Part shown: piece by piece, positions 1 to 19,881 of the stretch | Position numbering within the stretch: position 1 is the stretch's first letter | Layout: every line of letters begins with the position of its first letter | Virus record (IMG/VR): IMGVR_UViG_3300032295_003161 | Origin: an uncultured virus (IMG/VR IMGVR_UViG_3300032295_003161) | Taxonomy: Duplodnaviria > Heunggongvirae > Uroviricota > Caudoviricetes | Reading direction: 5' to 3' (one strand) | Length of the DNA stretch: 20,000 nt | Notes under the pieces: generated by a model | Databases searched by the model: none | Seen by the model: only the letters and a program-made list of their open reading frames with translations | Told to the model about the DNA's origin: nothing | Translations under genes and position numbers: made by a program

Positions 1-1760
1 AATCTAAAAGAAATATGAAATGTTGTTGTATTAGCATATTTTATAGCTGTTTTGGTATATTGCAATAATTTAAAAACATCTACTAAATAAGGAGTACCTG
101 CATCTTGTTTTTTAGGTATTACGTTTTCATATTGTGCATATTTTTCATTAATCAAAAGCGATTCATTTGAATTTGATTTTTTTACCTTATTTATATCATA
201 AACACCATTATACTTTTCGTTTGGATAAGGCAAAGTAATTAAAATATGTGCATTAGTAGCAGTAATACCATTTTCGTCAAAATTAACACCAGTTAAATTT
301 AATCTTTCGCTATCTGGATTTTTATCTAAAAATGGCTCAAGAATACTACCTAATCCCTTATCAATAGGATTATTAATAAAAGGAACTTTTTTTGTATTTG
401 TTATGTTTTTAAAAATACTTGGCACTTTGCTCCATTCGTAAACTTGAGGACTTAATGTTTGACCATAATTTTTATTTGTTGTTAAATTCATTTTTTCGTA
501 GTTTTCTTCAACGTATTTTTTTGCTTTTTCAACCGAATCAAAATATTCTGTAATAACATCTGAATAGGTACGATTAAAACTTTCTCCATGAATAGAACTT
601 AATACAATTACAGTTAAAGATACTTCTCCACGTTTGTTTTTAAGTATTTCGTAACTATATTTTTCGTCTATTTTTTTATAAATTTCTTTACCATCCCTAT
701 ATCTACTAACTTTCCAACCATCTTCAGTAGTTGTTACAACGCTTGGTTGTTCGATTGAACTTTTTATTCCTCCTCCACCAGCATACAATCCACTTTCAGC
801 ACCTACCATACCATCGGCTTCCATATCTAAAACATCATTGTAGTTGTTCAAATCCCTTGAAGGGTGGTCGCCTTTTTTAGATTCTTCAACTAAATTAAGT
901 TGACCGCCATTATCAAATATATTTGAATTTTGCTCTTTGTAATCAAACACATAAGCCATTACTTCTTTTTCGTCTTTTAGAATAGCATTAGTAATCCTAT
1001 GGTGTCCATCTAAAACGTAATATTTATCATTTAGCTTGAACAAAATAGGGTATGATTCAACATCTTTTGTAGATTCAATATTAGGAATAGTTACATTTCT
1101 TTGAGAAGGAACTATGCTTTTTAAATCAACCATTTCAGTTGGCAATTTAGTTTCATTTTCTAAATAAGGGTCGGCAGTAGAAACAACACTCGCTGGTAAA
1201 ACCTCTACTTGATTAAAGAAAATTTTATTAGTAGGCACTTTTGGGAACGTACTTTTATTTTCTCTTTTTAAATCAGCAATTTTTTGTTGGTATTCGTTTA
1301 AGCTACCACCATTTTTGTATTCTTCATCGCAACCGCAACTATTCATAGATTGCATAATTTCATAATCAGTCATAGTCTTGCCACCGTAATTGTATGAACT
1401 ACCATTGAAGTATAATTCACTTGGCACATCGCCACCTTGCTCAAAAGAAACTCCACCGCCAGAAACATTGATTTTAGACAATATTTCTCTATTGGTAAGC
1501 ATTTCCCCTTGAAATTCTTTTTTAGTTTGGTCTGCAACCGCTGGAGCTGTAATAATAACTTCACTTGATTGAACTTCAATAGGTTGCCCAGTAGATTTAT
1601 TAATCCCTTTTATACCTCCCTCTTTATGTAATTTACCAACAAAATAACCGCCAACAGTAGCATCATCGTAAATCATAGTTTGACCTTCTCTTTTGCCAAC
1701 TAAAACTCCGCCTGCTGGTGTTTTTTTTGCTTCATCTAATGTTATTGTGTCTTTTTTCAT
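1..1760 (-). CDS. Large multidomain (polyvalent-type) phage protein, 3'-truncated by the window edge (>586 aa): virion-protein-like N-terminal domain, ParB/Srx-like domain, unknown domain, beta-clamp-like domain
   Basis: Manual translation from ATG 1760 (MKKDTITLDEAKKTPAGG...) has no stop before position 1, which probably explains its absence from the track. Motifs: GGYFVGKLHKEGGI..EVQSSEVII..LSKINVSGGGVSFEQGG; PILFKLNDKYYVLDGHHR (ParB-like, DGHHR at 996-1010); RLNLTGVNFDENGITATNAHIL...NEKYAQYENVIP (resembles clamp motifs R..L.GV.F..ATDGHRL and YPDY..VIP). Confidence 0.85.
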   Translation of the reverse strand, partial: MKKDTITLDEAKKTPAGGVLVGKREGQTMIYDDATVGGYFVGKLHKEGGIKGINKSTGQPIEVQSSEVIITAPAVADQTKKEFQGEMLTNREILSKINVSGGGVSFEQGGDVPSELYFNGSSYNYGGKTMTDYEIMQSMNSCGCDEEYKNGGSLNEYQQKIADLKRENKSTFPKVPTNKIFFNQVEVLPASVVSTADPYLENETKLPTEMVDLKSIVPSQRNVTIPNIESTKDVESYPILFKLNDKYYVLDGHHRITNAILKDEKEVMAYVFDYKEQNSNIFDNGGQLNLVEESKKGDHPSRDLNNYNDVLDMEADGMVGAESGLYAGGGGIKSSIEQPSVVTTTEDGWKVSRYRDGKEIYKKIDEKYSYEILKNKRGEVSLTVIVLSSIHGESFNRTYSDVITEYFDSVEKAKKYVEENYEKMNLTTNKNYGQTLSPQVYEWSKVPSIFKNITNTKKVPFINNPIDKGLGSILEPFLDKNPDSERLNLTGVNFDENGITATNAHILITLPYPNEKYNGVYDINKVKKSNSNESLLINEKYAQYENVIPKKQDAGTPYLVDVFKLLQYTKTAIKYANTTTFHISFR

Positions 1761-1761
1761 A

Positions 1762-2397
1762 TTATCCTATTAAAAACTTTAAATAGTCTGGCGTACCGCT
1801 ATCGGCAATACCGCCTTTCTCAAATCTTATGTCGTTGTTTTTTTTATCAAATGTAGTGTTAGTGCCATCCGCAAGTTTTATTTGGTTAGAATTATTAACA
1901 ACGTATAAATTATCTTTTCTTGTTCCAAATATTATTATGCCATCAAGCATTTCATCAATAAATAATTCTCTAATGTAATCTCCTCTGTTAATATCATAAT
2001 TATCAGCAGGTGCATAATAATCACTATTTGTTCTTCTAATTAAAGGATTTTTTATATTCAAAAAACATTCGTAAACAAAACCTTTGCTTTTAAGTTCAGA
2101 ATGTAATTTAGCATAGTTTTCAGCAGATTGTTTTCTTTGAGTAAAGAAAAAACCTCCTTGCTCACTTTGAATATAATTTAAACCTATTTTTTTTCTATCA
2201 AAAACATTAAAATAGCTCCCTGTTCCATGATAAACCACCATTGGCTCTCCATTTTCATCAACAACCTTACTTGCGTTTTCTGGGTCGTTTTCCCAATCCC
2301 CAAACCATTTCTTAAATTCTGGTGTGCGGACTAACTTATATTGTTCAGTAGTTAAATTGCTTGGCTTACCATTAGGTGCTAATAACTCTTTTTTCAT
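1762..2397 (-). CDS. ADP-ribosyltransferase-fold protein (ART-PolyVal-like), array copy 3 in transcription order
   Basis: SKVVDENGEPMVVYHGT, GGFFFT...AENY, FLNIKNP, DGIII, NQIK...DIRF match ART-PolyVal motifs. The position of the catalytic Glu is occupied by Leu. Confidence 0.8.
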   Translation of the reverse strand: MKKELLAPNGKPSNLTTEQYKLVRTPEFKKWFGDWENDPENASKVVDENGEPMVVYHGTGSYFNVFDRKKIGLNYIQSEQGGFFFTQRKQSAENYAKLHSELKSKGFVYECFLNIKNPLIRRTNSDYYAPADNYDINRGDYIRELFIDEMLDGIIIFGTRKDNLYVVNNSNQIKLADGTNTTFDKKNNDIRFEKGGIADSGTPDYLKFLIG

Positions 2398-2398
2398 A

Positions 2399-2953
2399 TT
2401 ATCCTATTAAAAACTTTAAATAGTCTGGCGTACCGCTATCAGAAATACCGCCTTTATCAAATCTTATATCGTTGTTGTTTTTGTCAAATGTAGTATTAGT
2501 ACCATCGGCAAGTTTTATTTGGTTTGGATTATATACATTTATATTAAAAAATGGTTTTTTTTTCTGTAAAACATCATCCCACTCTCCATATTTATAAATA
2601 TAAGCATCAAAACCTTTTTCATCATAATCATCTCTAATTTTATCTGTTATTTTTCTTGCATTTATAAAATAGAGTTTACTTTTGCCATAATTATTTGCTA
2701 AATTTTTATTATCGGTAAACCAATGACCTACTCTTATATCATTAAATTTGTTTTTAAAAATATTAAACCTTTTATTTGTTCCATGATAAACCACTAACGG
2801 CTCTCCATTTTCATCAACAACCTTACTTGCATTAGCAGGGTCGTTTTCCCAATCCCCAAACCACTTTTTAAATTCTGGTGTGCGGACTAACTTGTATTGT
2901 TCAGCAGTTAAGTTGCTTGGCTTACCATTAGGTGCTAATAACTCTTTTTTCAT
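2399..2953 (-). CDS. ADP-ribosyltransferase-fold protein (ART-PolyVal-like), array copy 2
   Basis: VVYHGT, GHWFTDNKNLANNY, GFDAYI, NPNQIK. The position of the catalytic Glu is occupied by Asn. Confidence 0.78.
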   Translation of the reverse strand: MKKELLAPNGKPSNLTAEQYKLVRTPEFKKWFGDWENDPANASKVVDENGEPLVVYHGTNKRFNIFKNKFNDIRVGHWFTDNKNLANNYGKSKLYFINARKITDKIRDDYDEKGFDAYIYKYGEWDDVLQKKKPFFNINVYNPNQIKLADGTNTTFDKNNNDIRFDKGGISDSGTPDYLKFLIG

Positions 2954-2954
2954 T

Positions 2955-3530
2955 TTATCCTATTAAAAATTTTAAATAGTCTGGCGTACCGCTATCAGAA
3001 ATACCGCCTTTATCAAATCTTATATCGTTGTTGTTTTTATCAAATGTAGTGTTAGTACCATCGGCAAGTTTTATTTGGTTTGCTTGAAAAACTACAATTT
3101 CATTTTGAAGAATAACTCCATCATAACCATCTTTTTGTAATTTTTTTGTTAAGGTGGATTTATTTTTATTGTAATATTTTTCAGACCATTCTTTTAATGA
3201 ATTTTCATCTAAATAAAATGGCTCTTTAATAAAACAATATAAATTTAAAACAATATTCCCGTAATTAGATGCTGTTTTTTCATTTTGAGTAAAATAAAAT
3301 CCCTCCCCATAACTTCCTCTGTTTGATTTTTCAAACTTGTTAAATGTTTTAAATGTTCCATGATAAACCACTAACGGCTCTCCATTTTCATCAACAACCT
3401 TACTTGCATTAGCAGGGTCGTTTTCCCAATCCCCAAACCATTTTTTAAATTCTGGTGTGCGAACTAATTTATATTGTTCAGCAGTTAAATTGCTTGGCTT
3501 ACCATTAGGTGCTAATAACTCTTTTTTCAT
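2955..3530 (-). CDS. ADP-ribosyltransferase (ART-PolyVal-like), array copy 1
   Basis: VVYHGT, YGEGFYFT...ASNYG, GYDGVILQNEIVVF give a complete H-Y-E-type motif set. Confidence 0.85.
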   Translation of the reverse strand: MKKELLAPNGKPSNLTAEQYKLVRTPEFKKWFGDWENDPANASKVVDENGEPLVVYHGTFKTFNKFEKSNRGSYGEGFYFTQNEKTASNYGNIVLNLYCFIKEPFYLDENSLKEWSEKYYNKNKSTLTKKLQKDGYDGVILQNEIVVFQANQIKLADGTNTTFDKNNNDIRFDKGGISDSGTPDYLKFLIG

Positions 3531-4356: not shown

Positions 4357-4465
4357 AATTTTATAAAAAAGTAAAGCTCCTACAAATCCAAACGCACTCG
4401 ACCTCGTTCTTCATTGTAAGAGCCAATATTTTTAAGTTACAAATTGTCGAGTGGTAACTACTTGA
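4357..4465 (-). ncRNA. Putative structured 5' leader RNA (two hairpins, 8-bp loop-loop pairing), copy A
   Basis: P1 AGUUAC/GUAACU with loop CACUCGAC (4446-4453); P2 GGCUCUUACAA/UUGUAGGAGCU plus AACG/CGUU with loop GUCGAGUG (4395-4402). Confidence 0.75.
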
Positions 4466-4473
4466 CAAATGTA
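4466..4473 (-). promoter_or_regulatory. -7 promoter box TACATTTG ahead of leader A
   Basis: TAnnTTTG a few nt 5' of hairpin P1. Confidence 0.7.
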
Positions 4474-4516
4474 GTAAAAAAAATTATTTGCAATCGGTTT
4501 CTTGGTTATTATTTAA

Positions 4517-4930
4517 TTAAGACAAATTATTACCTTGATTTTTTCTTCTCAAATAATCTTTTTTATATTTATTTTCGTGTTGTTTAATTTTACAAATTGA
4601 TATAGCCTTAACCGTTTTTTTAGCTATTTTTTCTGTTTTTTTTAAAATTTTTTGTTGAAATTCTTCACTACAACTATCAAATATAAATTTATTTAATTCA
4701 AAATGTAATTCTGGATTTTTGCTTGGTTTAGGTATTCTAAATTCTAAAGGGATTTTTATTTCATCTAAAACATCTTCAAAAAAATCTATATTAGAACAAT
4801 TAAAATAAACCCATCTTAAATATTTATTCTTTTTAAGATTTATTATTTCTTGAACTGATAAATCTGAATATTGTCCAAATTTAAGAGTTGACTTCCTTGT
4901 TAGTTTTCTTAATAAAGTAACATCGGACAT
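4517..4930 (-). CDS. Hypothetical protein with an N-terminal FG[KQ]Y...YL.W small domain (DUF3820/ExoX C-terminal-like)
   Basis: LKFGQYSDLSVQEII...KYLRWVY resembles the C-terminal NFGKY...KYVDWV segment of the exonuclease at 16654-17397. Confidence 0.55.
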   Translation of the reverse strand: MSDVTLLRKLTRKSTLKFGQYSDLSVQEIINLKKNKYLRWVYFNCSNIDFFEDVLDEIKIPLEFRIPKPSKNPELHFELNKFIFDSCSEEFQQKILKKTEKIAKKTVKAISICKIKQHENKYKKDYLRRKNQGNNLS

Positions 4931-4932
4931 TT

Positions 4933-6207
4933 TTATACAAGCTTTAAAATTATATTCTCAAACTTCTTGGTAATATCGTTCCATTTCCATTTTACAACGT
5001 GGTTGTATGCGTTTTCTACAATAGTGCTTACTTGACCTTTCACTTCATCTTCTTCGTTTTGTAGGTTGTAAACAATACCACATACTTGAGCCACTTCTTC
5101 TGGATTAGAAATAAATCTAATTTTTTCAAAGTCATTTACAAATACTGCTCTTTGGATAAACTTGAATAAAAACGCATTGTTACCATTATCAGTAATTTCT
5201 TGAATAGAAGTATGTCTTGGAGCAATTACCAGTTTTTTACAAGCCATTGCTTCAACTATTGATAATCCCCAACCTTCAGCCGTAGTGGTTGTAATAAAAC
5301 AATCAAAAGTATTGTAGATTTTATTTAATTCGGATTCGGAAATACCATTATTTTCATTAAAATCTTTTGGGAAGAAAATATCTTTACCAACATCTAAACC
5401 TAACCTTTCAGATAATCTATAACAATCAATTCCCATTCGGTCTTGAGGATTACAATGGATATATAAAACGGCATTAGCTTGACTTGTATGCTTGAACATA
5501 GCAAAACCAATCATAAGAGTTCCTAAATCCTTTCTTGCGGAATTACGGTTTACGCTACCAAACACAAAAACATCACTTTTGCCAAAAATAAGTTCTTTGG
5601 TTCTATTGTTTTCAAAAGAATTGTCTATTGGGTGGAACACTTCGGTATCTATTCCATGAGGAATGATTTTAATCTTTTTCCACTTGGATTCAGATATAAG
5701 CGGTTTTAAAACTGCTTTAGCATATTCAGTATAAGTAATAACTTCATCAAACAAGTCTAATACAGCACAATCGCTTGGTCTTGGCTCACTATCTATTGGA
5801 GTGTATAGGATATACTTCGTTTTCTTTTTATTGGCTTTTGTACGCTCTTTTTTAACGTTTGCCAAATGCTCGGTCATTGAGTTTAAAACTTCAATATCAT
5901 TTAATGCGAAAAACACATCAAAATCGTGTGAATAAAGTATTCTTAAAAGTTCTAATCTGGCGTAGCCATCTTTTTTTTCATCGACTGCCAAACAAGGAAT
6001 AACCATTACGTTTTCTTTGTAATTGTATGGCTTTTCAGTCAAGTCATTAATAGCTAATATCGTAATATTGAAGTTTTTGTTTTTGCTCCAATTCTCTATT
6101 AACTTTGTTGATACGTTACCGAATCCAGTTGTGCAATTAAAATCCCCATAAAATAGGATATTAACTGGTTGGTCTTTTTTAGTTTTCTTGGTGTGTACTA
6201 CTTTCAT
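4933..6207 (-). CDS. Glycosyltransferase, GT-B fold (GT4-like)
   Basis: TGFGNVS, IIPHGIDTEVFHP, VNRNSARKD, DCFITTTTAEGWGLSIVEAMAC (EX7E motif). Confidence 0.92.
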   Translation of the reverse strand: MKVVHTKKTKKDQPVNILFYGDFNCTTGFGNVSTKLIENWSKNKNFNITILAINDLTEKPYNYKENVMVIPCLAVDEKKDGYARLELLRILYSHDFDVFFALNDIEVLNSMTEHLANVKKERTKANKKKTKYILYTPIDSEPRPSDCAVLDLFDEVITYTEYAKAVLKPLISESKWKKIKIIPHGIDTEVFHPIDNSFENNRTKELIFGKSDVFVFGSVNRNSARKDLGTLMIGFAMFKHTSQANAVLYIHCNPQDRMGIDCYRLSERLGLDVGKDIFFPKDFNENNGISESELNKIYNTFDCFITTTTAEGWGLSIVEAMACKKLVIAPRHTSIQEITDNGNNAFLFKFIQRAVFVNDFEKIRFISNPEEVAQVCGIVYNLQNEEDEVKGQVSTIVENAYNHVVKWKWNDITKKFENIILKLV

Positions 6208-6457
6208 TTTTTGTTTTTTTTCCTACTATTAAAACTACTCTAATGTTTTCTTTTTTAAATTCTAATCTGTCTTTTTCATTTTTATACAAATATTCGTATT
6301 GTTCAAAACCATTCTCAATCAAATGCTTTTTTAATTTTAGCGAATAATTTCCTTGAAGTGCTGTATCATATTCAGTAAAGGTTAAAGAATAAAATAAATT
6401 CAAGTTTAAATTTAAACCTATCAAAAGACCTAATCTTTTTGAAATTTGATTTTCCAT
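6179..6457 (-). CDS. Hypothetical protein
   Basis: 92-aa ORF directly downstream of a repeated promoter/leader block. Confidence 0.7.
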   Translation of the reverse strand: MENQISKRLGLLIGLNLNLNLFYSLTFTEYDTALQGNYSLKLKKHLIENGFEQYEYLYKNEKDRLEFKKENIRVVLIVGKKTKNESSTHQEN

Positions 6458-6484
6458 TTTTTTTATATGTTTTAAAGTTCAAGT

Positions 6485-6515
6485 CAAAAGTATAAAATAT
6501 TATTTTAAATACAAA
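6485..6515 (-). promoter_or_regulatory. Consensus Bacteroidota promoter (TTTG-N19-TACTTTTG), repeated phage promoter copy 1
   Basis: -33 TTTG at 6512-6515, -7 box at 6485-6492; ~75-bp near-identical copy at 18409-18483. Confidence 0.85.
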
Positions 6516-6562
6516 ATATTATTTTAGATATATTTTATTATTTTAGATAATGTTTATTTTAT

Positions 6563-7084
6563 TTAATATTTACTGTTTATATTGTTTAGTCTTTTATACT
6601 CTAAATAACTTTCGTGTGCTTCTAATTCAGTATTAAAATATCCAGTATGAATCTTTTTTTTATTTATTTGTATTTGTCCTAACCATTTTTTATGCTTTTT
6701 ACAATAAGTTACACCAACATAAATACTGCTTTTATTTTTATTTAAAAACTTATGTATGTTATTTTCAGAATGTGAAACCCATTCTAAATTTTCAATTCTA
6801 TTGTCGTTTGGATTTGAGTTTATATGATTTATTTGAGGTTTATTATATGTGTTTTCAATAAAGTATTTAGCTATTATTCTATGAACTCTAAAAAGTTTGT
6901 CTTTTCCATTTATTTTCAAATTACATAAACAATAAAAATCTTTATCTAAATATTGTTTTATTATTTTATTTTCTAACTTAATTCTACCCATGTTACTAAA
7001 ATAGTAATCCAAGTCATATTCATTTGTTTTTACCCAAATTTCATTTTCTAAATCTTCAATAAAAGTGTTTTTGTAAATTTCCAT
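6563..7084 (-). CDS. NUMOD4-like HNH endonuclease with C-terminal AP2 domain
   Basis: EIW..YYFSNMGRIK; HRIIAKYFI..QINHINSNPNDNRIENLEW; SSIYVGVTY..KWLGQI..GYFNTELEAHESY (AP2). Start placed at ATG 7084 because the track's ATG 7099 lies within leader stem P2. Confidence 0.9.
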   Translation of the reverse strand: MEIYKNTFIEDLENEIWVKTNEYDLDYYFSNMGRIKLENKIIKQYLDKDFYCLCNLKINGKDKLFRVHRIIAKYFIENTYNKPQINHINSNPNDNRIENLEWVSHSENNIHKFLNKNKSSIYVGVTYCKKHKKWLGQIQINKKKIHTGYFNTELEAHESYLEYKRLNNINSKY

Positions 7085-7192
7085 AATAATAAAAAGCATC
7101 TAATTTCGTAAAATGGTGGATTTACTACTCTTAAATGCTTTTAAATTTATATTTTTATGATATACATTATTCCACCATAGATAATGTTATCA
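7085..7192 (-). ncRNA. Putative structured 5' leader RNA (two hairpins, 8-bp loop-loop pairing), copy B
   Basis: P1 UGAUA-ACAUUAU/AUAAUGU-UAUCA with loop AUGGUGGA (7171-7178); P2 AAAAGCAUUUAA/UUAGAUGCUUUU plus GUAAA/UUUAC with loop UCCACCAU (7113-7120). Confidence 0.72.
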
Positions 7193-7200
7193 CAAATGTA
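7193..7200 (-). promoter_or_regulatory. -7 promoter box TACATTTG ahead of leader B
   Basis: TAnnTTTG immediately 5' of P1. Confidence 0.7.
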
Positions 7201-7207
7201 ATAAAAA

Positions 7208-7834
7208 TTATTCAATTCCTTGCTCTCTATTGTCAGATAAACTCATAACGTGATAAGTTGGTGGGTGGTTAACTGCTTTAGCGTGTGTGCCAAACTTATT
7301 CATTGATTCTATTAGCCTCCAATCGTGGCTATAATCTGAATCATGCGTTGGCATTGTTTTTAAGAACTCGGTTCTAATAACTAATTCGCTATGACCAATC
7401 ATTCCATATTGAAGTTGAGCAACTCTGTTGGCTCGTCTTGGTGCTACATAACTATCAAAGTACATAAAATCGTAATTGGTGTTTTCAATAGCCGACAAAT
7501 AATTATCAAAATGGTTTGGTAGAATAATATCATCGTTGGCAAAAAAAGTAAAGTATTTACCTCTGGCAAGTTTTATGTTTTCATTAGTAATGAAGTAACC
7601 ATGACCGCCACGATTTTCTTTATTGTTTTTTATTATCAATTGGTTTCCTTTTGCGTTACAATCTTTTACAATATCAGCAAAGTAGTTGCTATCTACAAAA
7701 TCTTGCATTATAGGACAACCATCTCCAATTACAAGTGCTTCCCAATCGTTAGCTGTTTGGTTGGCAATACATTCAATTGCTCTTATAGTTCCTTTTCTTC
7801 TACCGAAGCAAGGCATTGAAACAGTTAATCTCAT
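7208..7834 (-). CDS. Glycosyltransferase family 2 (GT-A)
   Basis: LTVSMPCFGR, WEALVIGDG, ENRGG..NENIKLARGKYFTFFANDDII. Confidence 0.88.
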   Translation of the reverse strand: MRLTVSMPCFGRRKGTIRAIECIANQTANDWEALVIGDGCPIMQDFVDSNYFADIVKDCNAKGNQLIIKNNKENRGGHGYFITNENIKLARGKYFTFFANDDIILPNHFDNYLSAIENTNYDFMYFDSYVAPRRANRVAQLQYGMIGHSELVIRTEFLKTMPTHDSDYSHDWRLIESMNKFGTHAKAVNHPPTYHVMSLSDNREQGIE

Positions 7835-8097
7835 AGTTTTCTTATTTCTTTTTTAACTTTTTTAAAATATTCTTTTGTATCATATTCTTCAATTGGTTTA
7901 TTTGGAGAATATTTTATTATTTCATCAACTGAAATTAAAGCACATTTTTTTGCTACTTCCCAATCATCATATTCAAAAGAAGTACCATTAACTTCTGTTA
8001 AAACTTGACAAGTTAGTGGTAGTGGCATAAAAAACAAATCTACTAATTCATGTGCTTTTTCTTTTGGTGTTAATAATTCAAGTTTCCCTTTTTTCAT
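7831..8097 (-). CDS. Hypothetical phage protein (TPKEKA.EL...AK.CALI.VDEI type)
   Basis: 88-aa ORF with ATGA overlap into the GT2 gene. Confidence 0.75.
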   Translation of the reverse strand: MKKGKLELLTPKEKAHELVDLFFMPLPLTCQVLTEVNGTSFEYDDWEVAKKCALISVDEIIKYSPNKPIEEYDTKEYFKKVKKEIRKL

Positions 8098-8115
8098 AAC
8101 CCTTTTTCTTTTTTT

Positions 8116-8271
8116 TTATCCATTTCTTATTGATTTTAAACTATCATTTTTTCTATAAGGCATTACATCAAATGTAACACCTGATTCTGAATTATCTGTT
8201 CTGGTTTTATGAATAAGTTTGCCATTCATATAAATATAACATTCATTTCCTGATATTACAATGTGTGTCAT
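8116..8271 (-). CDS. 51-aa hypothetical protein (not in track)
   Basis: MTHIVISGNECYIYMNGKLIHKTRTDNSESGVTFDVMPYRKNDSLKSIRNG*; ATGA-coupled to the upstream ORF and fills the gap. Confidence 0.65.
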   Translation of the reverse strand: MTHIVISGNECYIYMNGKLIHKTRTDNSESGVTFDVMPYRKNDSLKSIRNG

Positions 8272-8480
8272 AGTCCTTTTTCCTTTTTGAAGATTTCTAA
8301 TAGTTCTTTTGACATTCTTTGTGTTATCTTAAATTGAGTAAATAGTCCATTTTTTAAACACCACTCCGCAAATTCAATAGCATAATCATCTGCTGTTTTT
8401 TCGCAATCAGTTAATAATGGTTCTTGCATACCACCAAATTCTTTTGGAACTAATGCGTTAAATTTTTCTTTTAGTGTCAT
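8268..8480 (-). CDS. Small paralogue family protein (MTL.EKF...AD.YAI.F..W...ELLEIFKKE)
   Basis: Shares motifs with 8616-8819, 8809-9081 and 19660-19881. Confidence 0.8.
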   Translation of the reverse strand: MTLKEKFNALVPKEFGGMQEPLLTDCEKTADDYAIEFAEWCLKNGLFTQFKITQRMSKELLEIFKKEKGL

Positions 8481-8619
8481 AGCTGTTTTTATTTTTTAAA
8501 TAATCTAATGTAGCTTTTTTTTCAGCCAACAAAAATTCAACTATAATTTTGTTGTCTTGATTTTCTATTAATGCATTATCAATTCTCATTAATTTTTCTA
8601 AAATTTCTTTTTTTGTCAT
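8458..8619 (-). CDS. 53-aa hypothetical protein (not in track)
   Basis: MTKKEILEKLMRIDNALIENQDNKIIVEFLLAEKKATLDYLKNKNSYDTKRKI*; ATGA-coupled to the upstream ORF. Confidence 0.6.
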   Translation of the reverse strand: MTKKEILEKLMRIDNALIENQDNKIIVEFLLAEKKATLDYLKNKNSYDTKRKI

Positions 8620-8819
8620 AGTTGTTTTTCCTTTTTGAATTTTTCTAACATTTCTCTTAATGTTTTTGTTTCATCTTTTTCAGTAAGTAGCCAAAAAGCA
8701 AACCCAATAGCATACTCATCTGCTAATTCTACTAACCGTTCTGCTGATTGATTTGTCAGTATAAAACTTTCTTGATATACAACAACTGGTTCTTCTTGGA
8801 ATTTTTCTTTAAGTGTCAT
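8616..8819 (-). CDS. Small paralogue family protein
   Basis: MTLKEKF...ADEYAIGFAFW...LEKFKKEKQL. Confidence 0.8.
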   Translation of the reverse strand: MTLKEKFQEEPVVVYQESFILTNQSAERLVELADEYAIGFAFWLLTEKDETKTLREMLEKFKKEKQL

Positions 8820-9081
8820 ATCCTTTTTCTTTTTTGAAGATTTGTAATAGTTCTTTATGCGTTTGACCTTTAGTGTATTTACTACTTGAATTTAACCAAT
8901 ACTCTTTTGCCATCCAGTCTGAAAACTGAATAGTAAATTCATCTCTCAATTCTTCGGTTTCTTCAATACCAACTAATATTCCTGCTTCAAATAATTCATC
9001 TTCGGTTTCTCTGCCATTTAGATTTTGCTTATTCAATAAAGAATACCATTCTACCTTTTCTTTAATTGTTTTTGGATTCAT
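8809..9081 (-). CDS. Small paralogue family protein (C-terminal half only, different N-terminus)
   Basis: DEFTIQFSDW...KELLQIFKKEKG. Confidence 0.75.
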   Translation of the reverse strand: MNPKTIKEKVEWYSLLNKQNLNGRETEDELFEAGILVGIEETEELRDEFTIQFSDWMAKEYWLNSSSKYTKGQTHKELLQIFKKEKGYDT

Positions 9082-9085
9082 AATT

Positions 9086-9160
9086 CTACTTTTTAATATA
9101 CCCTACTAATACAAATTTTCCGTAAACCCATTTGTAGTATGGGATTAAATCTTCTGTCAT
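9086..9160 (-). CDS. Possible 24-aa microprotein
   Basis: MTEDLIPYYKWVYGKFVLVGYIKK*; fills the gap between neighbouring genes with 4-nt spacing on each side. Confidence 0.4.
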   Translation of the reverse strand: MTEDLIPYYKWVYGKFVLVGYIKK

Positions 9161-9164
9161 TACT

Positions 9165-9881
9165 TTAGCTTTGTCTTCCATCGTAACTCTCTACCATTTT
9201 GTCAAATTCAGCACATATATCCAAAACCATTTCATAACTCCATTTTTGCTTCATATAATCGTTTTCTTTTATGTATTTAGCTGGATTACCTACATACGTT
9301 CCAAAACAATTTGGATTGATTTTTTTAGTAACTATTGCACCCATACCAATCATTGCATAAGAGCCTATTTTAGAGTACTGGTGGCAAATACTACCTAAAC
9401 CCATATTAACTCCTTTTCCAAGCAAAGAATGACCGCCAATTAGCACATTGCAACTAATAGTACAGCCATCGTTAATTTCGCAATCGTGTCCAACGTGAGA
9501 ACCTCTCAACATAGTGATATTATCTCCTAATTGTGTAGGCACATAACAACCTGCATTAACAGTTACATACTCTCTGAAAACATTATTATTACCAATGTTA
9601 GTTCCTTTGTTTTTCTTTCCAAAAAACTCTTTATGCTCTGGCTCGTTCCCTATTGAACAAAAAGGCTCAAATACATTATTGTTGCCAATAAATGTTTTTC
9701 CTTGAATTACCACATACGCACCGATTTTGTTACCCTTTCCAATTCTAACATTATTTCCAATTATAGCCGTTGGGTGTATATCGTTATCGTTTACAATTTG
9801 CAAAAACCTTTTTGATGGTTTTCTTCCTATTTCAGTAGTTGTGGTGTAATATTGTTTTTGAAATGGTGTTAAATCGTTCAT
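9165..9881 (-). CDS. LpxA-like left-handed beta-helix acyl/acetyltransferase
   Basis: Hexapeptide repeats IHPTAIIG...; LpxA-type motifs FREYVTVNAG, SHVGHDC, GGH, CHQY, GNPA; C-terminal helical region is short. Confidence 0.85.
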   Translation of the reverse strand: MNDLTPFQKQYYTTTTEIGRKPSKRFLQIVNDNDIHPTAIIGNNVRIGKGNKIGAYVVIQGKTFIGNNNVFEPFCSIGNEPEHKEFFGKKNKGTNIGNNNVFREYVTVNAGCYVPTQLGDNITMLRGSHVGHDCEINDGCTISCNVLIGGHSLLGKGVNMGLGSICHQYSKIGSYAMIGMGAIVTKKINPNCFGTYVGNPAKYIKENDYMKQKWSYEMVLDICAEFDKMVESYDGRQS

Positions 9882-9887
9882 GTCGCT

Positions 9888-9977
9888 TTATATTAAATGG
9901 ATTAATGTTACTATAAGTAAAATAAGCATCAGCCATGCAATTATTTCGTTTATAATATCCTGTTTGTTGTATTTCAT
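9888..9977 (-). CDS. 29-aa single-TM microprotein (not in track)
   Basis: MKYNKQDIINEIIAWLMLILLIVTLIHLI*; fills the intergenic gap on the coding strand. Confidence 0.55.
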   Translation of the reverse strand: MKYNKQDIINEIIAWLMLILLIVTLIHLI

Positions 9978-9980
9978 TAT

Positions 9981-10553
9981 TTATGAATATTTGTTAATTA
10001 TATTGTTTTCTAACTCAAATTGTTTTCTTGCTTTATATGCTTCTTCTTCAGTTTCAAAAAAACCTATCCTTATTTTTTTTGAATTATGACAAATATAAGA
10101 GATAAACCTACCTTCTTTATTAAGACAAACACCAACATATTTACTGGTTTTGGTTTTGTTTTTAGACATGTGAGATTGGTTTTCCCCTCTGTTAACCCAT
10201 TCTAAATTATCAAACCTATTGTTTGATTTGTCAGAATCTATATGGTTTATTTCTGTTTTATTTTCAATTGGCTCTAAAAAACATTCTGCAACAGCTCTAT
10301 GTAAACTTTTTCTTTTAAACTTATCAAAAACCCTTAAAAAAACTGAATTATAATTATTTTTATAATGTTTATTTATTGATAATATTTTAGGTTTAAAAGT
10401 CATTATTCTTCCATTGGATTTATGAATAACTCTATGTAAAGATTTTACTCTCCCCATATTAGAAACTTGATAATATCCTTCAAATTCTAAAATATCTTTC
10501 CAAATTTCTCCTTCTAAATCTTGTAGCGAATGATTTTCGTTGTTTTTTTGCAT
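9981..10553 (-). CDS. NUMOD4-HNH-AP2 endonuclease
   Basis: EIWKDILEFEGYYQVSNMGRVKS; HRAVAECFL..EINHIDSDKSNNRFDNLEW; TSKYVGV..IGFFETEEEAYKAR. Confidence 0.93.
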   Translation of the reverse strand: MQKNNENHSLQDLEGEIWKDILEFEGYYQVSNMGRVKSLHRVIHKSNGRIMTFKPKILSINKHYKNNYNSVFLRVFDKFKRKSLHRAVAECFLEPIENKTEINHIDSDKSNNRFDNLEWVNRGENQSHMSKNKTKTSKYVGVCLNKEGRFISYICHNSKKIRIGFFETEEEAYKARKQFELENNIINKYS

Positions 10554-10662
10554 AATTTTATAAAAAAGTAAAGCCTTTACATATCCAAACGCTCACTACT
10601 TCGTTTTTCAATGCAAAGGCAAATATTTTTAAGTTACTAAATGTAGTGAGGTAACTGATACA
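10554..10662 (-). ncRNA. Putative structured 5' leader RNA (two hairpins, 8-bp loop-loop pairing), copy C
   Basis: P1 AGUUAC/GUAACU with loop CUCACUAC (10643-10650); P2 GCCUUUGCAU/AUGUAAAGGC plus AACG/CGUU with loop GUAGUGAG (10592-10599). Homologous to copy A with compensatory changes. Confidence 0.78.
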
Positions 10663-10670
10663 CAAATATA
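10663..10670 (-). promoter_or_regulatory. -7 promoter box TATATTTG ahead of leader C
   Basis: TAnnTTTG at the same offset from P1 as in copy A. Confidence 0.7.
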
Positions 10671-14011: not shown

Positions 14012-14348
14012 TTTTCATGTTTTTTTTGTTTTTCAACATAAAAACTTTTTTAGCATAATATTGTCTTTCTTTTCTGGACATTTCTTTTGTTTCCAAAGTT
14101 CCATTAGCAACAAGCCATTTTTTTAATTCAGAAATTGTTAGTCTTGGGTCAATTACAAGTGGTTTTGGTCTTTTAGTGCAAACCTCTAACTTGTTAGAAA
14201 TTTCTTCGTGAATAACTTTGATTTCTTTTACTGAATTTTCAATTGATTGAAGTTGTTTAACTTCATCTTGAATGGTAACTTGTGTTTGTTCTACGTTTGG
14301 CGTTTCCTTACAAAACAGCCAATTAATAAATCTAAAAATTATTTTCAT
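13959..14348 (-). CDS. Hypothetical protein
   Basis: First gene after repeated promoter copy 2. Confidence 0.7.
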   Translation of the reverse strand: MKIIFRFINWLFCKETPNVEQTQVTIQDEVKQLQSIENSVKEIKVIHEEISNKLEVCTKRPKPLVIDPRLTISELKKWLVANGTLETKEMSRKERQYYAKKVFMLKNKKNMKIVFDKKAKSYKYYPNGL

Positions 14349-14371
14349 TTTTTTTGTTTTAGTTAATCCTT

Positions 14372-14402
14372 CAAAAGTATAAAATATTATATTAAATACA
14401 AA
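14372..14402 (-). promoter_or_regulatory. Repeated phage promoter copy 2 (TTTG-N19-TACTTTTG)
   Basis: caaaagtataaaatattatattaaatacaaaatattat differs from copies 1 and 3 at one position. Confidence 0.85.
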
Positions 14403-14424
14403 ATATTATATTTAATAAAACGTA

Positions 14425-15387
14425 TTATTTTAAAGATTTTAAAGTTGCTTCGATATTTTTTCTCAATTGGTCTGGAATAATAAAGTTTAATGCGGTTTCT
14501 AAAGTTGTTTTCATATTCGTATGTTCCGCTTTTAAAATATCTATTTCAGATTGATAAGACTTCACATTAGAAGATGCAATGGCTTCAAATTCTAAAGATT
14601 TTTTAGTTAATACCGTAACCTTTTTTTCTGTCTTTGCAACTTGTTTCTGCAACTCGGCATTTTGCTTTGCCAACAACTCTTTTTGATTGTCATCTTGTTG
14701 TTTACGGTCTTTTAATCTATTGAATATTTCTTGGAATTGTTCTTCAGTAGTATCAGAATAAATTACATCATCTTCGTTTACAATAAAAAAAGAATAGGGT
14801 GCTAATTTCATTTTTCTTTCAGCATACAACTTGGTTCTTTTTTCTGTTTCTTCTTGCTCCAGTCTTATTTTTTCTTGCTCTTTTTGATAATTTTCAAGCG
14901 ACATTTTTCCACCATTTAAAATAGTATTAAAAGCAACCTCCGACATAGTACTTAAATCAAAAGCATCTAAATCTAAAACTTGTAAATATGGTTTTAGTAA
15001 CTCTAATCGGTCTGCTTTAAGTTTTGCCTTTCTCAAATGCTCTTTTGTTTCAGCATACTTTTCTTGAATTTCTAAATGGTCTTCAGCTGGTTCTATAACA
15101 GCGAATAATCTTTTGGCAAGGCTATCAATAAATCTACCTTCTAACAAAGACTGCTCTTTAAGGCGTTTGCGTGTCTTTTCAATCTCAACTCGCTTTGCTT
15201 TTAAAAGAAGTCTGCCTTCTCTGGCTTGTTGCATTAAATCTACTTGACTTTCATCGCTAACGACAATATCGTATGCTTTTTTATTCCATTCGTTTGCTAT
15301 ATCCTCGTATTCTTTGAATTTAGCATCAATTGATAATACGACCTCTCTTGGTAATCCGTTTTCCATTAGTTCTTGTTCTTGGTTCAT
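14425..15387 (-). CDS. Coiled-coil phage protein
   Basis: 320 aa, E/K/Q-rich and helical (AREGRLLLKAKRVEIEKTRKRLKE). Confidence 0.75.
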   Translation of the reverse strand: MNQEQELMENGLPREVVLSIDAKFKEYEDIANEWNKKAYDIVVSDESQVDLMQQAREGRLLLKAKRVEIEKTRKRLKEQSLLEGRFIDSLAKRLFAVIEPAEDHLEIQEKYAETKEHLRKAKLKADRLELLKPYLQVLDLDAFDLSTMSEVAFNTILNGGKMSLENYQKEQEKIRLEQEETEKRTKLYAERKMKLAPYSFFIVNEDDVIYSDTTEEQFQEIFNRLKDRKQQDDNQKELLAKQNAELQKQVAKTEKKVTVLTKKSLEFEAIASSNVKSYQSEIDILKAEHTNMKTTLETALNFIIPDQLRKNIEATLKSLK

Positions 15388-18206: not shown

Positions 18207-18415
18207 TATGTCAACGCTATTATTTGTCCGTTAATCCATTGACTATAATTTTTTGGATTTCCATATTTTTCTAAATTATCTAAATTCCTTTTATAGTAAT
18301 CTTTATAACCTTCTTGACAATCTATAACAAAATTATCAAAAGACCCTTTTTCCCCACAAGCGATAAATAAACATTTTAAATCTTCGTTATCAATTTTAAA
18401 GATAATTTTTTCCAT
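18206..18415 (-). CDS. Hypothetical protein
   Basis: First gene after repeated promoter copy 3. Confidence 0.7.
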   Translation of the reverse strand: MEKIIFKIDNEDLKCLFIACGEKGSFDNFVIDCQEGYKDYYKRNLDNLEKYGNPKNYSQWINGQIIALT

Positions 18416-18443
18416 TTTTTTTTATATGTTTTAAAGTTCAAGT

Positions 18444-18474
18444 CAAAAGTATAAAATATTATTTTAAATACAAA
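18444..18474 (-). promoter_or_regulatory. Repeated phage promoter copy 3 (TTTG-N19-TACTTTTG)
   Basis: Identical to 6485-6515. Confidence 0.85.
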
Positions 18475-18496
18475 ATATTATTTATAATAATTTATA

Positions 18497-18877
18497 TTAT
18501 TTATAAAACTCTATCAACCAACCTTGTGCAATTATAATTCTTAACATTTCAGATTCGTCAAATAGTTGAATTAAAACTTCATCTCCAGAAGAAACATCTA
18601 CTGCTTTAATTAATTGTGTTTTATCTCCATCAGTTGTTTCAACTTTTTCAACACTACCATAAGGCTTGTATTTAATTGTTTTACCATCTTGGTAATACAA
18701 ACATATATATCCAGTATTCTTTTCATTAAAAACAACCAATAGGTCTGTTTTTTGTAATTCCATAATAACACCATCTTCTTTTGTGTTATATGACTTATAT
18801 GTTTTTGTAAAAGTTTCTTTTTGAGCATAGTTTGTAAACGATACAAACAACAATGCAATTAATAATAGTTTTTTCAT
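18497..18877 (-). CDS. Secreted/periplasmic protein with Sec signal peptide
   Basis: MKKLLLIALLFVSFTNYA|Q: predicted SPI cleavage before Gln, as is typical of Bacteroidota. Confidence 0.8.
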   Translation of the reverse strand: MKKLLLIALLFVSFTNYAQKETFTKTYKSYNTKEDGVIMELQKTDLLVVFNEKNTGYICLYYQDGKTIKYKPYGSVEKVETTDGDKTQLIKAVDVSSGDEVLIQLFDESEMLRIIIAQGWLIEFYK

Positions 18878-19120: not shown

Positions 19121-19663
19121 TTATTTCTTTTTAATTTGTTTAACGAATACATCTAAACAAGATTTACTAAAGTTTTGCTCTTGTAGCATAAATTTTCTAA
19201 AAGCATCTAAATCTTCCTCACTATAACTTCTTTCTTGTTTAGGTTCTTCTTTTGGAATGATTATTTTGTAACCACTATGGTCAACAAAACCTTTATTGTT
19301 ATAATCCCAATTATTAACTATCTTAACCTCCTCACAATTTAGATTCTTAATGAACCATTCTAAAAACTCATCATCAATTGCTTGTACACCATCTTTGATT
19401 AAGTCTTTGTTATCTGTTAGGATTATCTTTTTAACATAACTGAAATTATTTAAGTCTTTATCTTCTTCAGATGCAAATGAAATAAAATTATTTGCAGTAT
19501 TAATAAACCAATCTCCTACTTTGATTTCTTCATCAGAAGTGATATAGATGTTTTGAGTTTCTCCTTTACTTCCAATTGCAATAGTGGATAAAATTAATTT
19601 TCCTTTTTGATTAATTCTTAACCTACTTGGATTTGGTGTTGGTAATACGTGTATGTTTTTCAT
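19121..19663 (-). CDS. Hypothetical phage protein
   Basis: 180 aa; MKNIHVLPT..PSRL...NIYITSDEEIKVGDW...DGVQAIDDEFLEWF. Confidence 0.8.
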   Translation of the reverse strand: MKNIHVLPTPNPSRLRINQKGKLILSTIAIGSKGETQNIYITSDEEIKVGDWFINTANNFISFASEEDKDLNNFSYVKKIILTDNKDLIKDGVQAIDDEFLEWFIKNLNCEEVKIVNNWDYNNKGFVDHSGYKIIIPKEEPKQERSYSEEDLDAFRKFMLQEQNFSKSCLDVFVKQIKKK

Positions 19664-19881
19664 AATTCTTTTTTAAATATTTCTAATAGTTCTTTTGAAG
19701 TTTTGCCGATATATTTTTTATCCATTATTGAACTTTTACTAATGTACCAATTTAAAAACTCAATAGCGTAATCATCTGCTATTTGTTCTAATTCTATTGC
19801 TGTATCTAAATCTATATTTAAAGTTGCAGTTGTGTTTTTTTGACTTATTTTAAGTCTTTTAAACTTTTCTATTAATGTCAT
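19660..19881 (-). CDS. Small paralogue family protein
   Basis: MTLIEKF...ADDYAIEFLNW...KELLEIFKKEL. Confidence 0.8.
   Translation of the reverse strand: MTLIEKFKRLKISQKNTTATLNIDLDTAIELEQIADDYAIEFLNWYISKSSIMDKKYIGKTSKELLEIFKKEL

What the first reader, a model, noticed from the sequence alone, without database searches (positions are those of the whole stretch)
4357..10670. All three HNH endonuclease genes carry a promoter plus a kissing-loop RNA leader, each with a different 8-nt pairing code
Seen: 4357-4473, 7085-7200 and 10554-10670 share one layout on the minus strand: TAnnTTTG box, hairpin P1, AAAAAUAU linker, interrupted hairpin P2, U-rich run, ATG. The P1 and P2 loops are perfectly complementary over 8 nt: CACUCGAC/GUCGAGUG (A), AUGGUGGA/UCCACCAU (B), CUCACUAC/GUAGUGAG (C). 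A and C are alignable and their stem and loop changes are compensatory. B has an unrelated sequence but the same structure and length. Every P2 contains G-U pairs that work only on the transcribed strand, which favours RNA structure over DNA palindromes. Known: phage homing endonuclease genes are often repressed by simple leader hairpins, and some HNH proteins (IscB) work with a cognate RNA. Inference: this is a conserved cis-regulatory or protein-partner RNA that travels with NUMOD4-HNH genes. The distinct 8-mers could insulate co-resident elements from each other. I do not recognise the motif but cannot exclude an existing Rfam entry.
Basis: partly seen in the sequence, partly recalled or inferred. 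Interest (0 to 1): 0.9.

Follow-up and report, generated by a model that had tools for sequence, protein, structure and literature searches.

The report
Self-pairing leader RNA of Flavobacterium phages
In front of each of three DNA-cutting genes of this phage sits a promoter and a folded RNA of about 95 bases whose front end pairs with the tip of a stop-signal hairpin; the same RNA also heads DNA-replication and antirepressor genes in related phages, so it is probably a general valve on transcription, not a partner of the nuclease.

Summary
In detail: three promoter + two-hairpin leaders with perfect 8-nt loop-loop pairing. In 35 homologues picked for that pairing, all 8 loop-loop pairs covary, with no G-U; a scan blind to it gives a separate 7-9-nt peak. 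Rfam has no match. The HNH-specific reading fails: 31 of 57 leaders precede replication initiators, helicases, ERF, AntA, Rha or small unknown genes, and 24 of 37 near-identical leader pairs precede unrelated proteins. Hairpin 2 ends in a U-run in 52 of 57 (7% in controls). Best reading (0.55): a transcription attenuator in which the 5' 8-mer pairs with the terminator's loop and sets read-through; no expression data were available. Code-based insulation is unproven: no faster code change, no third target site. Leader and HNH gene C move as one 703-bp unit. This scan noted such leaders before in three other phages, and an unannotated published candidate (DNAVirus_8377) may be the same RNA. Cultured Flavobacterium phages carry it, so it is testable.

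The parts
4466..4473 (-). Leader A: Bacteroidota sigmaA -7 box (TAnnTTTG); expected +1 near 4461
   Evidence: sequence; box lies at -12 to -5 of the start site per PMC9723704 passage; start not mapped
4435..4459 (-). Leader A: hairpin P1, 6 bp, 13-nt loop; 8-mer at 4453-4446
4424..4434 (-). Leader A: A-rich linker
   Evidence: UAAAA nearly invariant in alignment A3
4376..4423 (-). Leader A: hairpin P2 (10-11 bp, 4x4 internal loop, 5 bp, 10-nt loop); complementary 8-mer at 4402-4395
4365..4375 (-). Leader A: interrupted U-run after P2
3850..4356 (-). NUMOD4-HNH endonuclease A, 168 aa; followed by a bidirectional terminator at 3843-3825
   Evidence: relative G001 has an unrelated 73-aa gene in place of promoter+leader+ORF
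7193..7200 (-). Leader B: -7 box; expected +1 near 7188
7158..7192 (-). Leader B: hairpin P1, 10-nt loop; 8-mer at 7178-7171
7096..7142 (-). Leader B: hairpin P2; complementary 8-mer at 7120-7113; U-run follows at 7095-7085
   Evidence: identical in G001
6563..7084 (-). HNH_3-AP2 endonuclease B, 173 aa (an in-frame ATG at 7099 lies inside P2)
10663..10670 (-). Leader C: -7 box; expected +1 near 10658
10632..10656 (-). Leader C: hairpin P1, 6 bp, 13-nt loop; 8-mer at 10650-10643
10573..10620 (-). Leader C: hairpin P2; complementary 8-mer at 10599-10592; U-run at 10572-10562
9981..10553 (-). NUMOD4-HNH endonuclease C, 190 aa
9978..10680 (-). Mobile unit C (promoter + leader + ORF, 703 bp), absent from relative G001 contig C2
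   Evidence: one base stands in its place; 8 of 30 and 3 of 30 differences next to the junctions against 0-2 of 30 further out

Best explanation
A portable promoter-plus-attenuator of freshwater and brackish Bacteroidota (Flavobacterium-type) phages. Host sigmaA RNA polymerase starts about 5 nt after TAnnTTTG (inferred). The first 25 nt fold P1 and display an 8-mer. About 45 nt later the partner 8-mer appears at the tip of P2, the hairpin of an intrinsic terminator (long stem + U-run). If the two 8-mers pair before the lower stem of P2 zips, the 5' arm of P2 is closed into a ring while the 3' arm is still held by polymerase, which should hinder or delay the 1.5-2 turns of P2 and favour read-through; if P2 closes first, a ~95-nt RNA is released. 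The pairing thus sets what fraction of transcripts reach the gene or operon behind it. Shown: structure, covariation, fixed geometry, U-run, gene context, mobility. Inferred: transcription, termination, the direction of the effect. Small siphophages use it at the head of replication, recombination and antirepressor genes; free-standing HNH genes carry it as part of their cassette to get own, damped expression wherever they insert.
For: Covariation: 8 of 8 loop-loop pairs change on both sides, 279 of 280 cells paired, no G-U; P1 and P2 also covary (alignment of 35 chosen for >=7-nt complement). Blind check: of 1282 boxes in 22 contigs, 190 had two hairpins; complement length was 7-9 nt in 30, 5-6 in 9, <=4 in 151 (contigs were chosen for holding one leader, about 11 of the 30 were new). 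Of 10 model hits not in the training set, 8 pair perfectly, 1 is cut off, 1 pairs through a 5' segment outside a loop. Terminator signs: >=5 U in the 8 nt after P2's last G-C pair in 52 of 57 (5 misses are over-extended folds) against 7% of 589 control gene starts; the U-run stays with P2 in 7 cases where the ATG is 47-52 nt away. Fixed geometry: spacing of the two 8-mers 39-51 nt, 41 of 57 at 43-46; partner 8-mer abuts P2's 3' arm in 54 of 57. Variants without a P1 loop keep the same logic with 8, 11, ~12 and ~20 bp (L304, L323, L336, L371). Context: DUF6291 and HTH_36 replication initiators, helicase, ERF, AntA, Rha; heads of initiator-helicase operons. Precedent for a kissing loop onto a terminator loop causing read-through: guanidine-IV (PMC11611296 passages).
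Against: The simple terminator scan does not call any of the three P2 hairpins (loops over 8 nt, interrupted stems), and the U-runs of A and C are interrupted. MFE folds pair the U-run with the A-rich linker, which could explain the U-run without termination. By rough model-building (my inference) the kiss may coexist with a complete P2, which would make it a stable fold rather than a switch. No signal (ligand, protein, RNA) that would tip the switch was identified. In most leaders P2 ends 10-27 nt from the ATG, close enough for an effect on ribosome loading.
Confidence: 0.55

Rival explanations
1. Code-addressed RNA feedback or immunity (P4 CI / P1 c4 logic): released leader RNAs, or P2 cut free at the A/U linker, pair in trans with nascent leaders of the same code, block the cis pairing and enforce termination; different codes keep co-resident operons and heteroimmune phages apart. 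This extends the best explanation rather than replacing it.
For: 39 codes among 57 leaders; 0 of 19 co-resident pairs share >=5 nt; cognate 8-mers of the window pair at -10 to -12 kcal/mol, non-cognate at -3.7 or weaker; no single-sided change in the loop helix on close tree edges, 0 of 112 against 17 of 196 in P2 (partly built in by selection); leaders head replication and antirepressor genes, and no integrase or CI-type repressor was found among 78 of 139 ORFs scanned from three complete phages or in the annotation of hattifnatt9-1; P4 uses CI RNA to stop its replication genes (PMC4825925 passage).
Against: No downstream seqC-like copy of the code (mean best match 4.0 vs 4.0 in controls); compensated changes per pair are no more frequent than in P2 (6 of 112 vs 9 of 196, P = 0.79); co-resident avoidance not significant (about P = 0.09); intramolecular pairing should outcompete trans pairing.
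Confidence: 0.2
2. Stable fold without switching: the pairing caps the 5' end and compacts the leader, protecting the mRNA or making a long-lived ~95-nt small RNA; termination, if any, is constitutive.
For: P1 starts about 3 nt from the expected 5' end; tight spacing and an invariant A-rich linker suit a docked tertiary fold; loop order can be swapped between hairpins (L271:14333, L306:14683), so order is not essential.
Against: Does not explain why the partner always sits at the tip of a hairpin followed by a U-run, nor the ~20-bp version (L371) that can hardly coexist with a closed hairpin.
Confidence: 0.12
3. Translational control: P2, extended by linker/U-run pairing, hides the initiation region, as for T-even homing endonuclease hairpins; the kiss opens it.
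For: P2 core ends 10-27 nt from the ATG in most leaders; in B an in-frame ATG lies within P2; precedent in PMC2988022 passages.
Against: In 7 leaders the ATG is 47-52 nt beyond P2 and the U-run stays with P2; T-even hairpins are single stems bypassed by an internal late promoter, not found here.
Confidence: 0.06
4. Cognate RNA of the HNH protein (guide, antitoxin or scaffold, like IscB omega-RNA/HEARO).
For: 18 of 24 NUMOD4/HNH hits in the phage contigs held carry the kissing leader and 2 more a variant (contigs biased); leader and ORF move together.
Against: 31 of 57 leaders precede non-nucleases; 24 of 37 pairs of >=85% identical leaders precede unrelated proteins; proteins are I-HmuI-like with AP2 or other own DNA-binding tails and no RuvC hit; only 6 of 80 protein-selected NUMOD4-HNH loci have it.
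Confidence: 0.03
5. DNA-level element: P1 is an operator palindrome (autorepression as for I-TevI) and the rest a recombination or ssDNA signal.
For: P1 of class I is a strict inverted repeat next to the promoter; leaders are shared junctions where genes are swapped.
Against: 47 of 57 P2 stems hold G-U pairs valid only on the transcribed strand; P1 sequence differs between classes and is missing as a loop in some.
Confidence: 0.04

Closest known systems
Guanidine-IV riboswitch (mepA motif)
   Same: 5' hairpin loop kisses the loop of a terminator hairpin with U-run; kiss competes with terminator closure during transcription (PMC11611296 passages).
   Different: No Rfam hit; loop helix is free to vary (39 codes) and loop order can swap, so no fixed ligand pocket is evident; phage replication and nuclease genes, not exporters.
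Phage P4 seqA/CI/seqC and P1 c4 (Rfam RF01695) immunity RNAs
   Same: Leader RNA with complementary loops in front of phage replication or antirepressor genes, acting through premature termination (PMC4825925 passage; PMC2864571 table lists c4 for Proteobacteria and phages).
   Different: No second target downstream, no Rfam C4 match, single unbranched P2, Bacteroidota promoter; processing and trans action untested.
Regulatory hairpins, operators and terminators of T-even homing endonuclease genes (I-TevI, segB, mobE)
   Same: Free-standing HNH/GIY-YIG genes damp their own expression with RNA structure (PMC2988022 passages).
   Different: Those are single hairpins over a Shine-Dalgarno site or intragenic terminators; no loop-loop pairing; not shared with replication genes.
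Fremin et al. 2023 candidate DNAVirus_8377 (and DNAVirus_1203), PMC10690425 supplements
   Same: 8377: 105 nt, 88 sequences, mostly freshwater, predicted hosts Bacteroidetes, RNIE terminator 'yes', upstream of HNH_3, NUMOD4, AP2, GIY-YIG genes. 1203: 96 nt, upstream of NUMOD4/HNH.
   Different: Identity could not be checked: alignment and position files were too large to read. The main text has no mention of NUMOD4; no loop-loop pairing or mechanism seen in what I read.
IscB omega-RNA / HEARO (recalled)
   Same: Structured RNA directly upstream of an HNH-containing ORF.
   Different: No Rfam hit, no RuvC, ~95 nt, not tied to the protein.

Membership tests
Guanidine-IV riboswitch | Match to the Rfam model / conserved ligand-binding loop bases | tested here: not met
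   No hit at E<=5 in the window or E<=2 in 14 loci; loop helix columns vary freely
Guanidine-IV riboswitch | Loop of a 5' hairpin pairs with the loop of a terminator hairpin followed by U-run | tested here: met
Guanidine-IV riboswitch | Ligand-dependent read-through | not testable with these tools
   needs transcription assay
P4 CI / P1 c4 immunity RNA | Match to Rfam C4 family | tested here: not met
P4 CI / P1 c4 immunity RNA | Complementary target upstream of the antisense loop (seqA-like) | tested here: met
   loop 1 is complementary to loop 2
P4 CI / P1 c4 immunity RNA | Second target downstream (seqC / a2-b2) | tested here: not met
   best match in next 200 nt equals control, 57 leaders
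P4 CI / P1 c4 immunity RNA | Placed before replication or antirepressor genes | tested here: met
   but only about 2 of 65 AntA upstream regions carry it
P4 CI / P1 c4 immunity RNA | Processed small RNA acting in trans | not testable with these tools
   no read data
IscB/HEARO RNA-guided nuclease | RuvC+HNH protein with cognate upstream RNA | tested here: not met
   Pfam NUMOD4/HNH_3/AP2 only; PDB match 1u3e; leader uncoupled from protein
Cis-antisense attenuators (pT181, ColE1 type; recalled) | Counter-transcript from an opposing promoter | tested here: not met
   opposite-strand TAnHTTTG within 250 nt in 3 of 53
Intrinsic terminator | Hairpin followed by U-run | tested here: met
   52 of 57 vs 7% of 589 controls
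Intrinsic terminator | Short G+C-rich stem with 3-8 nt loop | tested here: not met
   not called by the consensus scan
Known self-cleaving ribozymes | Conserved catalytic core / Rfam match | tested here: not met
   no bases shared across leader classes
Free-standing I-HmuI-type homing endonuclease (genes A, B, C) | NUMOD4/HNH domain, empty allele in a relative, polymorphism at the junction | tested here: met
   (empty allele shown for C, replaced allele for A; B present in both)
Fremin 2023 DNAVirus_8377 | Match to its alignment or covariance model | not testable with these tools
   files not readable; metadata fit

The most novel reading that the evidence does not exclude
An RNA-only, sequence-addressed control circuit of Bacteroidota phages: each promoter makes a leader whose 8-nt code both drives its own read-through in cis and, once released, shuts same-code promoters in trans, giving a timer and superinfection immunity for DNA replication in phages with no recognisable repressor; homing endonucleases borrow it with private codes.
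Probability: 0.2. Interest if true: 0.88.

Novelty: new variant of a known kind. Interest (0 to 1): 0.62.

Why it matters
How Bacteroidota phages time DNA replication and restrain homing endonucleases is little studied (my knowledge). This leader offers one compact, recurring device for both. If the pairing sets read-through it is a ligand-free counterpart of the guanidine-IV architecture with a freely changeable 7-9-nt helix, which would also be a tunable or orthogonal part for Bacteroidota genetics. It is testable now: 46 records of cultured Flavobacterium LMO6/LMO9 phages carry one class in two natural compensated alleles, and hattifnatt9-1 has three leaders with three codes.

Tried and rejected
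Single-protein search with HNH C found no viral loci. Model R1 found nothing in 130 genomes of the family of G001; uninformative, as G001 may be no kin of the host and only 31 candidates per genome were scored. The genome-collection pattern gave 21 hits, 1 real (a Flavobacterium MAG contig). Accelerated change of the code: looked promising in single pairs, not borne out. Third target site and antisense promoter: not found. -33 element: none evident. Linker length vs P2 length correlation (rho -0.76) rejected as an artefact of where the helix boundary was drawn. Small proteins behind many leaders as a possible common regulator: only unnamed families; not pursued. AntA genes at large mostly lack the leader. 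The HNH genes of two other annotated phage records have no leader. Paper searches that found no description; main text of PMC5737381 has no HNH, NUMOD4 or kissing (its supplements not searched). No expression data could be obtained.


Full report
Observation. The window is part of a large AT-rich phage of Bacteroidota type (glycosyltransferases, replication and recombination genes, tandem ART-PolyVal genes). The three leaders are as described. Chance is excluded: 5 of 1990 tiles reach a 7-nt loop-loop complement and 4 of them are the leaders. Rfam gives nothing above noise (14 further loci). The three proteins are NUMOD4/HNH_3 or HNH_3/AP2, 37% identical for A vs C, and match PDB 1u3e at E 2.5e-29 (that this is I-HmuI is recalled).

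Mobility. No own genome is held. A 94-98% identical contig in G001 lacks exactly box + leader + ORF C (703 bp), with differences clustered at both junctions (8 of 30 and 3 of 30 nt against 0-2 further out), carries another 73-aa gene in place of unit A, and has leader B unchanged. In two other phages similarity to unit A begins at the box itself. Promoter, leader and ORF are thus one cassette.

Family. Three pattern scans, a protein-based scan and whole contigs gave 57 distinct leaders with 39 codes among 2141 boxes (one duplicate dropped) and three more with a looser rule; that looser rule fired at 4 of 3000 random places, 3 of them overlapping known leaders. In alignment A3 (35 rows, chosen for a complement of 7 nt or more) all 8 loop-loop pairs change on both sides, 279 of 280 cells pair, none by G-U, and slid controls fall to 34-49% paired. 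Because that set was filtered, I checked blind: among 190 two-hairpin boxes the complement length is bimodal, 30 at 7-9 nt and 151 at 4 or less, and 8 of 10 model hits outside the training set pair perfectly, one is truncated and one is the variant below. Of 80 NUMOD4-HNH loci chosen by protein, 29 have a box-like site upstream and 6 the full leader, with unrelated P1 sequences.

Classes. Most have a 13-14-nt loop 1 and a 10-nt loop 2; two have the loops swapped; seven have 8-nt loops with a 7-nt helix. In L304 the 5' 8-mer is not in a loop; in L323 and L336 an 11-12-bp helix, and in L371 a ~20-bp helix, joins the 5' end to the interior of the U-tailed hairpin. What is constant is a 5'-proximal segment that pairs with the top of a long hairpin followed by a U-run, at a set distance (39-51 nt) and directly against the hairpin's 3' arm (54 of 57).

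Genes. 24 of 57 leaders precede a nuclease-type gene by family or profile hit, 2 more probably by eye, 31 do not, although the searches started from HNH leaders. The others include DUF6291 and HTH_36 initiators, a SNF2/DEAD helicase, ERF, AntA and Rha. In 12 small-phage loci examined most leaders open an operon of an optional 60-80-aa gene followed by an initiator-like and a helicase-like gene (families confirmed for G155 and G160). 24 of 37 leader pairs at 85% identity or more precede unrelated proteins. A cognate RNA-protein pair is therefore unlikely.

Mechanism. The box sits at -12 to -5 of the start (PMC9723704 passage), so P1 begins near +3. P2 is followed by 5 or more U in 8 nt in 52 of 57 leaders against 7% of 589 control starts, also where the ATG is ~50 nt away. 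The consensus terminator scan does not call these hairpins, so termination is inferred. In the guanidine-IV riboswitch a kissing loop onto the terminator loop promotes read-through and longer P2 weakens it (PMC11611296 passages). By inference, pairing here closes the 5' arm of P2 into a ring while the 3' arm is tied to polymerase, so the lower stem cannot wind up freely: kiss first gives read-through, P2 first gives a ~95-nt RNA. I put 0.55 on this attenuator; the direction of the effect and any input signal are not shown.

Codes. The window's three codes do not cross-pair, and none of 19 co-resident pairs shares 5 nt, but 11.8% of all pairs do, so P is about 0.09. On close tree edges the helix changes only by full compensation (0 single changes of 112) but no more often than P2. 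There is no downstream target and no opposing promoter. Distinct codes fit drift under strict pairing as well as insulation; the trans model keeps 0.2.

What is known. Nine paper searches found no description of this RNA; the library lacks most subscription papers. I read passages of PMC4825925, PMC11611296, PMC2988022, PMC9723704, PMC5737381, PMC2864571 and PMC10690425, and supplement rows of the last. Its candidate DNAVirus_8377 fits in length, habitat, host, terminator call and downstream domains and may be this motif, unnamed; its alignment could not be read. Three earlier notes of this scan describe such leaders before nucleases in other phages; I took the guanidine-IV lead from one and tested the architecture. 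New here: the reach beyond nucleases to replication and antirepressor genes, the swapped and loop-less variants, the empty allele, the tests against code diversification, and cultured phages with natural alleles.

Verdict. Real, conserved, not in Rfam, not HNH-specific; works most likely like a kissing-loop attenuator, member of no tested family. New variant of a known kind; interest 0.62.

Noticed in passing
window 1762-3530 (-): Three tandem ORFs (211, 184, 191 aa) with nearly identical N- and C-termini and variable middles; one hits ART-PolyVal; each is preceded by a TACATTTG box (1855 is internal; 2492, 3048 internal; 3555 upstream). The relative G001 has a single 312-aa ORF at this place.
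   Followed up: no
window 8268-9081 and 19660-19881 (-): Several small ORFs sharing an 'ADDYAIEF...KELLEIFKKEK' type motif, with different copies in G001: a small expanding gene family.
   Followed up: no
window 6451-6545 (-); L139 1-64, 3736-3827, 12181-12258: An AT-rich promoter-region repeat that recurs at 14342-14432 and 18404-18507 of the window and in G001, with a TAnnTTTG box but no structured leader.
   Followed up: no
window 4517-4930 (-): 137-aa ORF with weak ExoX-like_C hit, absent from G001: a further insertion next to unit A.
   Followed up: partly
L003, L125, L151, L166, L176, L178, L271:14333: Where a 60-80-aa gene follows the leader, a second small conserved hairpin lies between the U-run and the ATG. 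The proteins have only unnamed relatives.
   Followed up: partly
L371 ~324-500 (+): Before an AntA gene: 5' segment complementary over ~20 bp (-27 kcal/mol) to the loop of a U-tailed hairpin; long form of the same design.
   Followed up: partly
L431 ~321-430 (+): Same design with an 8-nt complement before an AntA gene in a 26% G+C contig that has a Shine-Dalgarno-like GGAG before the ATG, so possibly a non-Bacteroidota host.
   Followed up: no
L191 just before the ATG: The 7-nt code is repeated right before the start codon, the only such case of 57; may be chance.
   Followed up: no
L139 18163-18369: 68-aa ORF of MSKVA/MNKVE pentapeptide repeats in G001 contig C2.
   Followed up: no
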